Positions 29,689 through 49,570 of a stretch of 64,000 bases of DNA are shown here, in pieces. The DNA is from Callorhinchus milii. Taxonomy: Eukaryota. Every line of letters begins with the position of its first letter. Within the stretch, counting starts at the first letter, position 1. Made by a program: the position numbers and the translations under genes. The stretch spans positions 36,270,001-36,334,000 of the forward strand of contig NW_024704745.1 in the NCBI RefSeq assembly GCF_018977255.1, read 5' to 3'. The notes below the pieces were generated by a model, which did no database searches, was not told the origin of the DNA, and saw nothing but the letters and a program-made list of their open reading frames with translations.

Positions 29689-30762
29689 CTTCAAATTTCA
29701 AACAAGTCTAAAGAAGCAATGCGTTGTGTGAAGGATTTTGGATGTTTCAACCTAATAAGTCATTATTGGGTGGCATTTGTGGAGTCTCAATATGAAATGA
29801 CACAAATTTCATGTCCAAGTTGAAGCATTATTGCATTATAACAGTGTTATTTAAGCGCCCATGAGTATTTAAAAGTAGTCAGGTTTATGCCTGTGTGGAG
29901 TGTTGAAATCAAAATACCCAATAATATAATTGCTATTTTTAATATTGATATTGATAGACTCTGATGAACTTGTGTTTGAAATATGTATATCTCAAAAAGC
30001 AATCTCTACAATCTGTGTATTGAATATTCCTCAAAAACTTCACTTATTCCTGTCTTCAGTGTCACTGATGGTTGATTTTGCACTCCAAATCTATGACCTC
30101 ATATTGTCAGCAGCTACAAAATTGATTAAGGTACAAATTCACAACAGAGAATTCATTCCACAAGTGAGATGGATCTAATTATTTATTGTGGCTCAGTGTT
30201 CCAATGTTTATTCCATTTATAATATTACAATTACCCATCAGGAATTCCAGATCACATACAGAGGCATTCAATATAAAACATCTTTGTAGAGAAATTCTAC
30301 CTGAGTCTAGATTTACTCTTTTTATGAAGCATTTTAAAGTGCTTAAAATTTGGCAAATTCTTCAATTCATTCTTACAATTCATTTTTTGAAGCCCATGTT
30401 GTATAGGTTTTAAAAGCACTGTCTTGAAAATTAAGGCTGTATTCAACAATTTGTTAAATGATGCAGTCAGTCAAAAGCAAACACAGCCTGACATGTGAGG
30501 GGTCCCCTAACTGTCTAGTTAGTGAGATTAGTAAATTTCTGTTATCTAGGAACCATTCCAAACTGGAGCACAATCGTTCATTCAGACCCCTAGGATCAAA
30601 ACATTTTGAAGAAAAATCTCGACCAGCTCATGAGTGCCAAGTATTGTTTTTATTGCCTACAACAAAAAGTTCTACCACATCCATAAATATAATTTCATTG
30701 TTTTGTTGTTCATGTACTTTGATCAAGTATATTAAACAGGTTTTGATAGAACCCATTGTAAC

Positions 30763-31639
30763 GCGAATGCACCACATGACGTCAACGTGACTTGGACACA
30801 AGAACAGACACATTTACAGTCTGGATATGGGAAACCGTCTGCCACTGGGCCTCAGGAAGTGATCAGTAAACTAAACATTTCTACACAAGACTGGACCGAT
30901 GGGAAAGTATACTTCTGCATTGTCAGCCATGACGATATACTGACTCCCATCAGAAAAAAGATATTTAAGGAGCCCGTTGAGTACAGGAAACAACCTTCAG
31001 TGTATCTGCTCCTCCCATCGGCAGAAGAATTGTCTGCTCAGCAGTCTGTCACCCTCAGTTGCCTGGTGAAGAACTTCGCTCCCAAAGAGATCTTTGTGGA
31101 GTGGACTGTCAATGACCAATCGATTGATGCCAACAAATACAAGAACACTGAGGTGATGGCAGACAGTGCAGATGGCAATTACTCCATGTACAGCATGTTA
31201 TCCATCTCAGCCGGAGATTGGGACAGAGGCTATTCCTACTCCTGTGTGGTCGGACATGAAACTTTCCCACTGAAGACCCTGACCAGAGCCGTTAATAAAT
31301 CCAGCGAGATTATCCCAACCGAGACGATGCTGGAAGGTGTTCAACAAGATGAACGTGACAACCTCTGGCCGACTGCTTCCACCTTCATCATCCTCTTCTT
31401 CCTGAGTATTTTCTACAGTGCCACGGTCACTCTATTTAAGGTCGAATGAGTTTATTACCATCAGCTTCACCGATGTTCTTCGTCTGTTTGTGTTTATCTT
31501 CAATCTCCTGTGACAGAGTATGTGATGTCTTGTTTCACCCATTGAACACATTCATGGAAAGTGAACATTGTATTGTGCAGCTATGTGAATTTTAGTGACG
31601 TTTCTTATTGTTAGTTTATGTTACAATGTGTCTTGTACA
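30763..31639 (+). pseudogene. IGHM: Processed (intronless) retrocopy of membrane-form IgM heavy chain: partial Cmu3, Cmu4, TM1, TM2, probable 3'UTR
   Basis: Frame open 30763-31449. Cmu3-like ANAPHDVNVTWTQEQ...DWTDGKVYFCIVSH; Cmu4-like QPSVYLLLPSAEELSAQ...CLVKNF...VEWTVND...YKNTEVMA...YSCVVGHE...VNKSS; TM NLWPTASTFIILFFLSIFYSATVTLFK-VE*. Domains are fused without introns at about 30970/1, 31306/7 and 31440/1. YKNTEVMA and VNKSS recall shark IgM Cmu4 rather than IgW/IgNAR (from memory). UTR assignment of 31450-31639 is inferred. Confidence 0.9.
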
Positions 31640-31953
31640 GAGTCCTGTAGCTCAGTGGTTAGAGCACTCGCATTGCAAGCGAGACACCCGAGTTCAATTC
31701 CAGGCAGGGCGAAACCTTGGGCAAGTTTCCTTACTCCACACGCCTAATAATAATCCCACCAAAACCCAAAACAATAATAAATTGGTCATTTTCAATCTAC
31801 GACTGTTTGTGGGACATTGCTGTGCGCAATTGGCTGCCGCGTTCGCCCACAAATATACAGTCAATTCACTTTACAGTGTGTTCTGTGAAGCGCTTTGGGA
31901 TGTCCTCCCGACGTGAAAAGCACTATATCAAATGCAAGGATTATTATTATTAT
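31640..31953 (+). mobile_element. Young full-length SINE directly 3' of the IgM retrocopy
   Basis: gagtcctgtagctcagtggttagagc...gggatgtcctcccgacgtgaaaagcactatatcaaatgcaagg(att)n; only a few differences from other young copies. Confidence 0.92.
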
Positions 31954-33209
31954 GATTATAGAGAGAATCACATGAAAACATGGAATTTCAAGTAATGAGG
32001 ATTGTGTGCTTGAATCCCATCCAAATGATATGTTAACTTATCTGCACCCACTACAAATGCTTTGTTCCTTCTTAGGTGTTGGACAGGCAACACGTAGGGT
32101 AAACCTTTATTTAATATTCTACTCAATTCATTAAAAAGTGTAACAGCTAAAATTATATTGAAAATAGAAAATGTATTTAATATTATTATATTAGAATAGA
32201 TTTACAGTCGAGATTCCATGTAATTATATTTCAGTGAATCAATTCAAAAGTGACATAGATTGGGAATAGTTTAAGATGTATTTTATTAAAATACATATCA
32301 AACACCATCTACTTTATTTTTGTGAGGCAACTGTTTCCACAATATTACTGAGTGGGGATCAGAGCAACATTATTTTCCTATTCAAGTTCTGTCTTTTCAC
32401 CAGTGCTAAAGTATGCCTAGTTGATCTTAGTGTTAACAAGTTACATGCTACTGTCAAAGGAATATTCATGATTGAGTGGGCAGTTAGTAGGATTGGGAAC
32501 CTATTCCTTTATGTGAAAGGTTCTTCACTATCAGCTATTGCTTAAGATTTCTCCTGGTGTCCTAGCCAACAATCCCCTGAATTAAATTGGTCATTCACTC
32601 TATCACTGCTTGTGGGACATTGATCTACACAAATTGACTGCAGTATTTGCTCACAAAACATAGTCACTCCACTTTACATTATATCCTGTGAAACACTTGT
32701 AACATCCTCCTGAATTGAAAAATGCTATACAAAATGCAACGTTTTTTCAAGCCATAAATCTCTCTCTTTCTCTCTCTCTTGCAGTGTGTGTGTCGTCAAA
32801 AGCAATTCTTTTCTCAGAGCTTTGTCACAACTTAGCACAGTGGAGACTTAATGGAGACTCTTTCCTCCCACTGAATCCTGGTCTTTGGAGTAATACCTCA
32901 GAACCAAGCTACTACTGATAGTAGTGTTTCTCTGCACAAGTTTCAAAGTGTAATAATAATAATAATCCTTGCATTTGATATAGCACCTTTCACATTGGGT
33001 AGACACCTCAAAGCGCTTCACAGGATATACTGTAAAGTGTAGTGATTGTAACTTGCAGGCAAATGAGGAAGCTAATTTATGCTCAGCAATGTCCTATGAA
33101 CACGCAATTTTGTATGACATATACAGAATACCAAATAGAATTTGATAAAGATTGACTGCTGTAGAAGAACAGAATAAGACTTGCAATACATGCTATACTC
33201 TACTTCAAC

Positions 33210-33244
<35 letters not shown>

Positions 33245-33478
33245 CCTTGCATTTGATATAGCGCTTTTCACGTCGGGAGGACGTCCCAAAGCGCTTCACA
33301 GAACACACTGTAAAGTGAATTGACTGTATATTTGTGGGCAAATGCGGCAGCCAATTGCACACAGCAATGTCCCACAAACAGTCGTAGATTGAAAATGACC
33401 AATTTATTATTGTTTTTGGTTTTATGAGGGATTATTATTAGGCTCTGTGTGGAGTAAGGAAACTTGCCCAAGGTTTGA
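33210..33478 (-). mobile_element. 5'-truncated SINE with long (TAA)n tail
   Basis: Stops at aaaccttggg; a similar copy lies at 35420-35661. Confidence 0.85.
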
Positions 33479-33735
33479 AACCAGATAATCAATTGATCAT
33501 GAACTGTATGTTTGCTGATTTAAGTATTACAAGTATAGTGAGTCAAAATCATTGTTCTAATGTACCTCAACATCAAGATTTAGAGTAATCCTAAATAATT
33601 CCATACCTTATTTAATGACTTAGATTCATTTGCATTTTGAAATATCCCCAAACTTCTAAATAATGGTTATGTCAGTAAAAGTAACCGAAAATGTTTAGAG
33701 CTGTCATCTTGGATTTGTGTTTAGGGTAATCATAC

Positions 33736-48182: not shown

Positions 48183-49570
48183 AACATAAGAACATAAGAA
48201 CATAAGAATTAGGAGCAGGAGTAGGCCATTCGGCCCCTCTAGCCTGCCCTGCCATTCAATAAGATCATGGCTGATCTATTCTAACTCCACCTACCCGCCT
48301 TATCCCCATTTCCCTTAATCCCTTTAGCCACAAGAAATCTATCAATCTCAGTCTTGAATATGTTCAAGGACTGAGCATCTACAGCAGATAATTCCATAAA
48401 TTCACAACCCTCTGAGTGAAGAAGTTTTTCCTCAACTCAGTGCGAAAGGGCTTACCCCTTATTTTAAGACTGTGACCCCTGGTTATAGTTTCTCCAACCA
48501 GGGGAAAAAGTCTCCCACTATCTATTCTCTCATGCCCCTTAATAATCTTATAGGTTTCTATAAGATCACCTCTTATTCTTCTATATTCTAGAGAATACAG
48601 GCCTAAATTGCTCAACCTATCCTCATAACTCATCCCAGGTACCAACCTAGTGAATCTATGTTGTACCCCCTCCAAGGCAAGTACATCCTTTCTTAAATGA
48701 GGAGACCAAAACTGCACACAATATTCTAGGTGCGGTCTCACCAGGGCCCTATACAGTTGCAGCAAGACTTCCCTACTTTTATATTCTAACCCTTTTGTAA
48801 CAAATGCCAACATACCATTAACCTTCCTAATTGCTTGCTGTACCTGCAAACTAACTTTTTGTGACTGGTGTACAAGGACACCCAAATCCCTCTGAAAGCT
48901 GACACTATCTAGTCTCTCCCTTTCTAAAAAATTATCTGCTCTACTGTTTTTGCCACCTAGGTGGATGACTTCACACTTCCCTACATTATACTTCATCTGC
49001 CATCTATTTGCCCACTCACCTAGCCTATCTATATCTCATTGCATTTTATTAATGTCATCCTCAGTGTTTACTCTCCCTCCTAGTTTAGTGTCATCCGCAA
49101 ATTTGGATACATTAAGTTCAATGTCCTCATCTAGATCGTCGATGTAGATTGTAAATAGTTGAGGCCCAGGAACTGATCCTTGTGGCACTCCACTAGTCAC
49201 ATCCCGCCAATCTGAGAAGGACCCGTTTATCTCTACTCTTTGTTTTCTTCCCATTAGCCATTCTTCAATCCATGCTAATATATTCCCCTTAATTCCATGG
49301 GCTCTAATCTTGTGGATCAACCTTTTATGTGGCACCTTATTGAATGCCTTTTGGAAATCTAAATACACTATATCCACTGATTCCCCCCTATCTAATCTAC
49401 TTGATATGTCCTCAAAAATATCTAAAAGATTTGTTAAGCATGACTTTCCTTTTGTAAAGCCATGTTGACTCTGTCTAATCATATTGTGATCCTCTAAGTA
49501 CCCCACTACGACATCCTTAATTAAGGATTCTAGAATTTTCCCTACCACTGATGTCAGACTAACTGGCTAA
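48183..49570 (-). mobile_element. CR1 LINE 3' ~1.4 kb, RT region nearly intact
   Basis: ORFs 49036..49548 (QHGFTKGKSCLTNL, YLDFQKAFNKVPH, GVPQGSV, KFADDTKL) and 48379..48996; 8-nt tail repeat (aacataag)n. Confidence 0.92.

What the first reader, a model, noticed from the sequence alone, without database searches (positions are those of the whole stretch)
31450..31960. The retrocopy ends in a SINE with an L2-type tail instead of poly(A): possible route for mRNA retroposition by a stringent LINE
Seen: no AATAAA or A-tract between the stop and 31639; a young full-length same-strand SINE abuts the UTR; no TSD around the SINE alone or the whole unit. Known: L2/CR1 reverse transcriptases recognise specific 3' tails and rarely copy ordinary mRNAs. 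Inference: either the parental mu 3'UTR ended in this SINE, which gave L2 its handle, or L2 RT switched template from SINE RNA to IgM mRNA. Either would be a SINE-tagged retroposition route that could apply genome-wide.
Basis: inference. Interest (0 to 1): 0.7.

Follow-up and report, generated by a model that had tools for sequence, protein, structure and literature searches.

The report
SINE-tailed IgM retrocopy, copied twice
A dead, intron-free piece of a membrane antibody (IgM) gene is fused to a short mobile element, and the same fusion sits on a second chromosome; the element likely lay in the tail of a parent gene missing from this assembly and likely let a choosy copying enzyme paste the messenger RNA into DNA, as the anatomy of 23 copies of another gene here also indicates.

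Summary
Real, and richer than reported. A spliced IgM CH3-CH4-TM1-TM2 copy (30734-31634) stops about 210 nt short of the parental AATAAA and joins a sense tRNA-Ala SINE. The same junction and a SINE-head haplotype found nowhere else recur once, 5'-truncated, on contig C16. The SINE body now at about 31712-31952 is not the original: a later 1.7-kb inversion swapped it with a neighbour. The original tail is at 33210-33476, and the old repeat interrupted at 30733 resumes right behind it. So mRNA and SINE most likely entered as one insertion primed at the SINE tail. No assembled IgM paralog carries the SINE (0 of 25 UTR hits), but the template's UTR matches none of them closely and paralogs appear to be missing. 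As an independent test, 23 of 23 RPAP2 copies run into a SINE in their parent's 3'UTR and none passes it. Best reading: SINE handle in an unassembled or lost IgM cluster (0.68); template switch 0.18. This scan noted the route before on other DNA (WEE2, RPAP2, RBM8A, HESX1, MFSD2A); I found no paper describing it.

The parts
30596..30733 (+). Left part of an old, unidentified repeat: the target of the insertion
   Evidence: Homologs at 71-83% run up to the junction
30734..30976 (+). 5'-truncated IgM CH3 exon (starts about 50 nt into the exon) with a 16-bp frameshifting deletion after 30762
30977..31306 (+). IgM CH4 exon, spliced to CH3 and TM1
   Evidence: 95-98.8% to paralog exons; C1-set domain; best PDB hits are membrane-form mu
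31307..31440 (+). TM1 exon, spliced
   Evidence: separate exon in paralogs, intron absent here
31441..31634 (+). TM2 exon (stop 31447-31449) and the first 185 nt of the 3'UTR; the parental UTR runs on about 210 nt to AATAAA
31635..31639 (+). 5-nt junction, identical in the C16 copy; may partly be the SINE's own 5' end
31640..31711 (+). Head of SINE A (original). Three variants shared with C16; this haplotype occurs exactly twice in the genome
31712..31952 (+). Body and tail of neighbouring SINE B, swapped in; exchange point inferred between 31712 and about 31744
   Evidence: lacks the subfamily indels of C16; 225/238 identical to the C16 body
31953..31959 (+). One copy of the likely 7-bp TSD of SINE B
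   Evidence: inverted partner at 33485-33491
31960..33209 (-). Inverted spacer: continuation of the old target repeat on the minus strand, with two older SINE pieces inside
33210..33476 (-). Headless body and (ATT)n tail of SINE A: the original 3' end of the retro-insertion
   Evidence: carries a marker with 11 exact copies genome-wide, C16 among them; 233/238 identical to the C16 body
33485..33491 (-). Second copy of the likely TSD of SINE B

Best explanation
This is a dead spliced copy of a membrane-IgM mRNA fused to a SINE, present twice in the genome, and it was likely made when an L2 reverse transcriptase bound and primed at the tail of a SINE that likely already lay in the 3'UTR of one IgM cluster now missing from the assembly. 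Step 1 (inferred): a SINE inserted in sense into the TM2 3'UTR of one IgM paralog. Step 2 (inferred): its spliced mRNA, present in a germ-line or early embryonic cell, offered the L2-type stem-loop and (AUU)n repeat. Reverse transcription began there rather than at poly(A), copied the SINE and ran on into UTR and coding exons, leaving out the UTR downstream of the SINE. Step 3 (two copies shown, route inferred): this gave a 901-nt 5'-truncated copy on C4 and a 76-nt one on C16; C16 may instead descend from an early C4 transcript by the same mechanism. Step 4 (inversion shown, cause inferred): recombination between SINE A and an antisense neighbour inverted about 1.7 kb and swapped the SINE bodies.
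For: Exactly 2 copies of the UTR-SINE junction (control 0) and of the head haplotype, with unrelated flanks. The old target repeat resumes behind the original tail: profile E 3.1e-20 on the minus strand; 13 of 14 non-SINE hits on minus, from 6 of 9 homologs; 4 of 9 independently found loci show the same strand flip. C16 lacks both C4-private UTR changes. The UTR differs from every sampled paralog more than the coding part does (8/190 versus 10/710, Fisher p 0.035, hand-completed counts), which points to an unsampled paralog. Contig depth hints at roughly 13-26 close paralogs against 8 assembled (the tool warns depth is no copy number). One paralog carries a sense L2 fragment with intact tail in the same UTR. 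RPAP2: the parent holds a sense SINE in its UTR; 23 of 23 other copies run into it, 0 of 23 continue past it, 13 of 23 are spliced. The head haplotype has no free-standing offspring, as an active SINE source would be expected to leave.
Against: The parent itself was not found: 0 of 25 upstream-UTR hits (two are one locus) and 0 of 28 downstream-UTR hits carry the SINE at the breakpoint. The mutation clock does not separate handle from switch (11/390 versus 10/710, p 0.11). IgM mRNA must reach germ-line cells, twice if C16 came from the parent. The 33476 body shares with C16 the subfamily marker and only one further, CpG-type, variant. About 110 nt of the target repeat are unmatched within the first 60 nt behind the tail, and the first 20 nt scored best against only 6 of 9 homologs, so exact reconstitution of the empty site is modestly supported.
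Confidence: 0.68

Rival explanations
1. Template switch at C4: L2 RT copied a free SINE RNA to its 5' end and jumped onto a broken IgM mRNA 3' end in mid-UTR. Later a read-through transcript of C4 was retroposed from its SINE tail to give C16.
For: No assembled paralog has the SINE. It needs IgM mRNA in the germ line only once. The SINE is nearly full-length at the junction. The clock is compatible. Chimeric retrotranscripts are known for L1 and a fungal LINE (PMC4476161, PMC2104539; search listing only).
Against: It needs a rare source SINE with three head variants and no other offspring, a free mRNA end in mid-UTR, and sense transcription of C4. C16 lacks C4's private changes. C16 would still be a handle-type event. 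The same anatomy has a visible parent in RPAP2.
Confidence: 0.18
2. Independent later SINE insertion: a conventional or tailless retrocopy came first, SINE A landed at its 3' end and removed any remaining UTR and poly(A), and C16 arose afterwards by 5' transduction or DNA-level copying.
For: The SINE family makes up 8-10% of the DNA examined, and an L2 insertion in a paralog's UTR deleted about 54 nt of target.
Against: The deletion would have to remove about 230 nt plus poly(A) and stop at the flank, or the SINE would have to hit the exact end of a tailless copy. No UTR remainder is left and the target repeat resumes behind the tail. No disabled intronless full-domain copy was seen among L7Ae (14 matches), GTP_EFTU (10) or Ras (150 listed of 151) matches, so SINE-free retrocopies look rare, within the limits of those searches.
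Confidence: 0.07
3. Homology-guided double origin: each copy was primed on a different free SINE RNA and switched inside the shared head onto an IgM mRNA carrying an older SINE.
For: At face value C4 and C16 share the head but differ in body subfamily.
Against: The inversion explains the mismatch: the C16-type body lies 1.3 kb away, with the target repeat behind it.
Confidence: 0.03

Closest known systems
CmiSINEs (SINE2-1_CM, SINE2B-1_CM) mobilised by L2-2_CM in Callorhinchus milii (PMC5499810, passages read)
   Same: tRNA-Ala head, tail shared with an L2 LINE, very high copy number; the paper reports 104 mRNA hits, all in 3'UTRs.
   Different: The passages I read describe SINE mobilisation, not host mRNA carried along. 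I could not align to the Repbase consensus or see the mRNA list (supplement unavailable).
Stringent tail recognition by L2-clade LINEs: UnaL2, ZfL2-1, ZfL2-2 (PMC4176376 and PMC3747384, passages read)
   Same: Stem-loop plus short repeat at the 3' end; a stem-loop is predicted in this tail (z -2.2 for the original body).
   Different: Here the recognised tail would be internal to a spliced Pol II mRNA, so the cargo is a host gene.
3'UTR-embedded Alu/B1 as facilitators of processed pseudogenes (PMC5199112, abstract and passages)
   Same: A SINE in the 3'UTR raises the odds of retroposition, most for genes with low germ-line expression.
   Different: That is a statistical enrichment in the poly(A)-reading L1 system. 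Here copies end at the SINE tail and lose the downstream UTR and poly(A).
Processed pseudogenes in general, and the view that CR1-type specificity limits them (PMC5470649, passages; Suh 2015 seen only as a reference there)
   Same: Spliced, 5'-truncated, disabled copy.
   Different: No poly(A), no complete UTR, no long TSD; made in spite of a sequence-specific RT.
Chimeric retrotranscripts (U6/L1; Magnaporthe chimeras; platypus snoRNA-RTE) and SVA 5' transduction
   Same: Host RNA on the 5' side, retroposon tail on the 3' side, one integration.
   Different: Those arise by template switch or RNA ligation, or carry unspliced upstream flank. Here the fusion is best explained as present in the parent gene, with multi-exon mRNA as cargo.
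Processed immunoglobulin pseudogenes of mammals (human IGHEP2 and a lambda pseudogene; recalled, no call)
   Same: An Ig constant-region mRNA retroposed in the germ line.
   Different: Those are, as recalled, poly(A)-tailed L1 products.

Membership tests
Processed pseudogene (retrocopy) | Introns precisely removed relative to a parent | tested here: met
   Three junctions joined; exons separate in paralogs
Processed pseudogene (retrocopy) | Dispersed location and disabling changes | tested here: met
   On C4 inside an old repeat; 5' truncation and 16-bp deletion
Classical L1-type retrocopy | 3' poly(A) after the parental polyadenylation signal | tested here: not met
   UTR stops about 210 nt before AATAAA; remainder absent
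Classical L1-type retrocopy | Long TSD around the unit | tested here: not met
   3-nt match with the present tail; at most 3-4 nt merged with the repeat tail at the original site
CmiSINE (SINE2-1_CM / SINE2B-1_CM) | tRNA-Ala-derived head | tested here: met
   ARAGORN tRNA-Ala call at 31641-31712
CmiSINE (SINE2-1_CM / SINE2B-1_CM) | 3' tail homologous to an L2 LINE | tested here: met
   55 nt at 80-82% to 2 of 3 window LINE ends. The L2 label of those fragments rests on recalled motifs and PMC5499810; Pfam named no family on them
CmiSINE (SINE2-1_CM / SINE2B-1_CM) | CORE domain and identity to the Repbase consensus | not testable with these tools
   No repeat library on hand
SINE-handle retrocopy | Parent carries the same SINE at the same UTR position | tested here: inconclusive
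   IgM: 0 of 25 and 0 of 28 hits, but the parent appears unsampled. RPAP2: met
SINE-handle retrocopy | Independent copies share the junction and end at the SINE tail | tested here: met
   IgM 2 of 2. RPAP2 23 of 23 reach the SINE, 22 with a clean tail
Template-switch or ligation chimera (U6/L1 type) | Fusion absent from the parent gene and unique to one locus | tested here: inconclusive
   Absent from assembled parents, but present at two loci
IgM heavy chain, membrane form | C-terminal C1-set domains followed by TM1 and a short TM2 | tested here: met
   paralog TM2 reads Val-Lys-stop

The most novel reading that the evidence does not exclude
In this genome a sense SINE in the 3'UTR, not expression level, is the main licence for an mRNA to be retroposed: one such SINE gave RPAP2 23 copies while ribosomal-protein and elongation-factor genes show none, and it let even B-cell-receptor mRNA enter the germ line twice, so the retrocopies record an IgM cluster that has since vanished.
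Probability: 0.5. Interest if true: 0.78.

Novelty: new variant of a known kind. Interest (0 to 1): 0.62.

Why it matters
Stringent L2/CR1 enzymes are held to make few retrocopies (PMC5470649), yet a 2026 preprint counts 14,081 in cartilaginous fishes, with unusual top parent genes, and attributes non-mammalian copies to CR1 or Tx1 by correlation (10.64898/2026.06.26.734816, passages). A SINE handle would explain how, and it predicts which genes get copied and where copies end. That is testable in any genome with L2- or CR1-tailed SINEs and in existing retrotransposition assays. The IgM case adds a lymphocyte-restricted cargo and a likely fossil of a missing Ig cluster. It also shows that SINE-SINE inversions can swap tails and mislead TSD and subfamily readings.

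Tried and rejected
Sequencing runs: no listed holder was on record as RNA. Contigs of three RNA-guessed runs and one small run showed only paralog-type alleles and no junction; this is no evidence on expression or on the parent, since contigs drop rare variants, and C4's own single-copy alleles were also missing from DNA contigs between 30793 and 31558. The inversion could not be checked in those samples because its breakpoints lie inside the SINE. TSDs as a discriminator: rejected. Breakpoint as a typical insertion site: the commonest 4-mer after the tail (11 of 60) occurs 6 and 13 nt behind the breakpoint but 5 times in 430 nt of UTR; weak, not used. Two different SINE sources for C4 and C16: dropped once the inversion was shown. 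Family screens for an unbiased retrocopy count: Sds3 gave 1 match; Pkinase 36 matches from 127 of 1449 candidates, none with stops, not followed up; the 15 full-domain Ras hits are intact ORFs that look like known single-exon genes (names recalled). These screens miss 5'-truncated copies and are lower bounds. C16's empty site could not be reconstructed: its 5' flank matched nothing held. One search crashed and one search had one strand mis-set; one search is the corrected count. The CmiSINE paper's supplement and Suh 2015 were unavailable.

Full report
Setting. The window is G000:C4:36270001-36334000 of a 992-Mb genome. I take the species to be a chimaera, likely Callorhinchus milii, from the match of its dominant SINE to the published description and from earlier notes. 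The frame at 30736-31449 encodes Ig C1-set domains and a transmembrane end, best matching membrane-form mu chains. Against paralogs on C83, C403 and C1091 it is CH3 (5'-truncated, 16-bp deletion), CH4, TM1 and TM2 without introns: a processed pseudogene.

The observation. Parental homology ends at 31634. In the close paralogs the UTR continues about 210 nt, in most to an AATAAA. A sense SINE with a tRNA-Ala-like head begins at 31640, and its last 55 nt match 2 of 3 LINE ends tested. No UTR remainder occurs on either strand of the window. No assembled paralog has the SINE at the breakpoint: 0 of 25 upstream hits, 0 of 28 downstream hits.

A second copy. G000:C16 (about 9541329 to 9540926, minus strand) holds the last 76 nt of the same UTR, the same 5-nt junction and a full SINE between unrelated flanks. 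A pattern scan with 2 mismatches finds this junction exactly twice. A 29-nt head haplotype with three variants also occurs exactly twice; without its rarest variant it occurs 20 times in mixed subfamilies. C16 keeps the parental base at both sites where C4 has a private change. Contigs of 4 samples from one study cross the C4 5' junction (4 of 4) and reach from the present tail into the flank (3 of 4, by under 31 letters on the SINE side); 2 hold a contig of the C16-type junction.

The inversion. C4 and C16 share the head but differ downstream in subfamily indels. The C16 marker has 11 exact copies genome-wide, one being the headless antisense copy at 33210-33476. The C16 body is 233/238 identical to that copy and 225/238 to the body now on C4. 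The 5' flank 30596-30733 is an old repeat. Its continuation maps to the minus strand leftwards from the tail of the 33476 copy: profile hit 33149-32769, E 3.1e-20, built from 7 of 9 homologs (two whose continuation diverged were left out); 13 of 14 non-SINE hits on minus; and 4 of 9 loci found independently carry the left part on one strand and the spacer on the other. A 7-bp repeat at 31953-31959 recurs inverted at 33485-33491, as expected for the TSD of an antisense neighbour. So about 1.7 kb was inverted after the insertion, with exchange near the start of the shared homology. An assembly error is not excluded. The original unit was mRNA piece plus C16-type SINE, with the target resuming behind the (ATT)n tail. 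Contiguity is modestly supported at base level (6 of 9 homologs), and about 110 nt of repeat are unmatched shortly after.

Where was the fusion made? C4 has 10 unique substitutions in about 710 coding nt (8, 2 at the TM2 start; by my reading 7 change the amino acid), so about 1.4% of neutral decay. The UTR has 8 in 190 (p 0.035); of the 5 in the C16 overlap, 3 are shared. The template therefore looks like a paralog that is not in the assembly. Contig depth over the paralog UTR is 130-162 against 6-12 for single-copy contigs, a rough hint of more close paralogs than the 8 assembled. Insertions into this UTR do happen: the C52 paralog has a sense L2 fragment ending 29 nt before our breakpoint. 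Against this, the parent was not seen, and the clock on the SINE side fits either model (p 0.11 and 0.78).

Independent test. A family search found an intronless copy on C4 and the parent on C5. Twelve exons are spliced; the parent's UTR holds a sense SINE with private variants shared by the copy, and the parent continues 428 nt to AATAAA while the copy stops at the tail. Of 24 hits to the last exon, 23 are not the parent: 23 of 23 run into the SINE head, 22 show a clean tail and one a degenerate one, 0 of 23 continue into the parental UTR, 13 are spliced to an upstream exon, one carries upstream intron sequence, and the rest are short like C16. By contrast, no disabled intronless full-domain copy appeared among 14 L7Ae, 10 GTP_EFTU or 150 listed Ras matches; these are lower bounds and miss 5'-truncated copies. 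RPAP2 was chosen because it was already flagged, so it shows that the route exists, not how common it is.

Mechanism. Shown: splicing, shared junction at two loci, end at a SINE tail, inversion, parent-borne SINE for RPAP2. Inferred: L2 as the enzyme (tail homology; stringent stem-loop recognition in fish L2s, PMC4176376 passages; stem-loop predicted at z -2.2), internal priming, a SINE-bearing IgM parent, and germ-line access of IgM mRNA. Odds: handle in a missing paralog 0.68, template switch then transduction 0.18, later independent insertion 0.07, double homology switch 0.03. Under the first two, C16 is itself a tail-primed copy carrying non-SINE RNA.

Literature. Read as passages: PMC5499810, PMC5470649, PMC3747384, PMC4176376, PMC5199112 (also abstract) and bioRxiv 10.64898/2026.06.26.734816. 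Seen only as listings: PMC4476161, PMC2104539. Searches returned no listing that describes mRNA retrocopies ending at an L2-tailed SINE of the parent UTR, or this IgM copy; one search returned nothing. Subscription journals are mostly not covered, and the CmiSINE supplement listing 104 mRNAs, which might include an IgM, could not be read.

Verdict. A real retro-insertion of mRNA plus SINE; a new variant of a known kind. The locus is dead and the IgM parent is unproven, but the route is well supported in this genome and testable. Interest 0.62.

Noticed in passing
L199 (G000:C52, about 63313-64065, minus): An IgM paralog with a sense, 5'-truncated L2 fragment of about 720 bp with intact tail in its TM2 3'UTR and about 54 nt of target lost: a potential handle. 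No retrocopy of it stood out.
   Followed up: partly
L040 (G000:C83:20800-30700): CH3 matches three times and CH4 four times in tandem; contigs of runs X5, X6 and X8 join CH4 back to CH3, suggesting an extended multi-domain heavy chain.
   Followed up: no
L101/L188 (G000:C30:1527828): A headless SINE 236/238 identical to the C16 body, sharing three variants: a third product of the same source, or an offspring of C16.
   Followed up: partly
L092/L093 (C3:41.266 and 41.282 Mb); L098/L099 (C16:9.418 and 9.541 Mb): The 11 copies of the rare SINE marker cluster locally, hinting at local conversion or local hopping.
   Followed up: no
L262-L275: 12 of the 13 spliced RPAP2 copies skip the penultimate exon; only L266 includes it, so the family records an alternative isoform or a secondary master copy. 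L179 keeps a 596-codon open frame.
   Followed up: no
window 30596-30733 and 32207-33209 (minus): Unidentified old repeat of over 1 kb with dispersed homologs at 70-83%.
   Followed up: partly
L031, 5' junction of the C16 copy: About 45 nt of short locally repeated AT-rich sequence precede the UTR piece, like templated end-joining scars.
   Followed up: no
L058/L200 (G000:C29:655-656 kb): Another IgM paralog has an insertion of about 375 bp in the TM2 UTR.
   Followed up: no
window 48379-49566 (minus): Reverse-transcriptase fragment (RVT_1) that looks CR1-like by recalled motifs, distinct from the many L2-like fragments.
   Followed up: no
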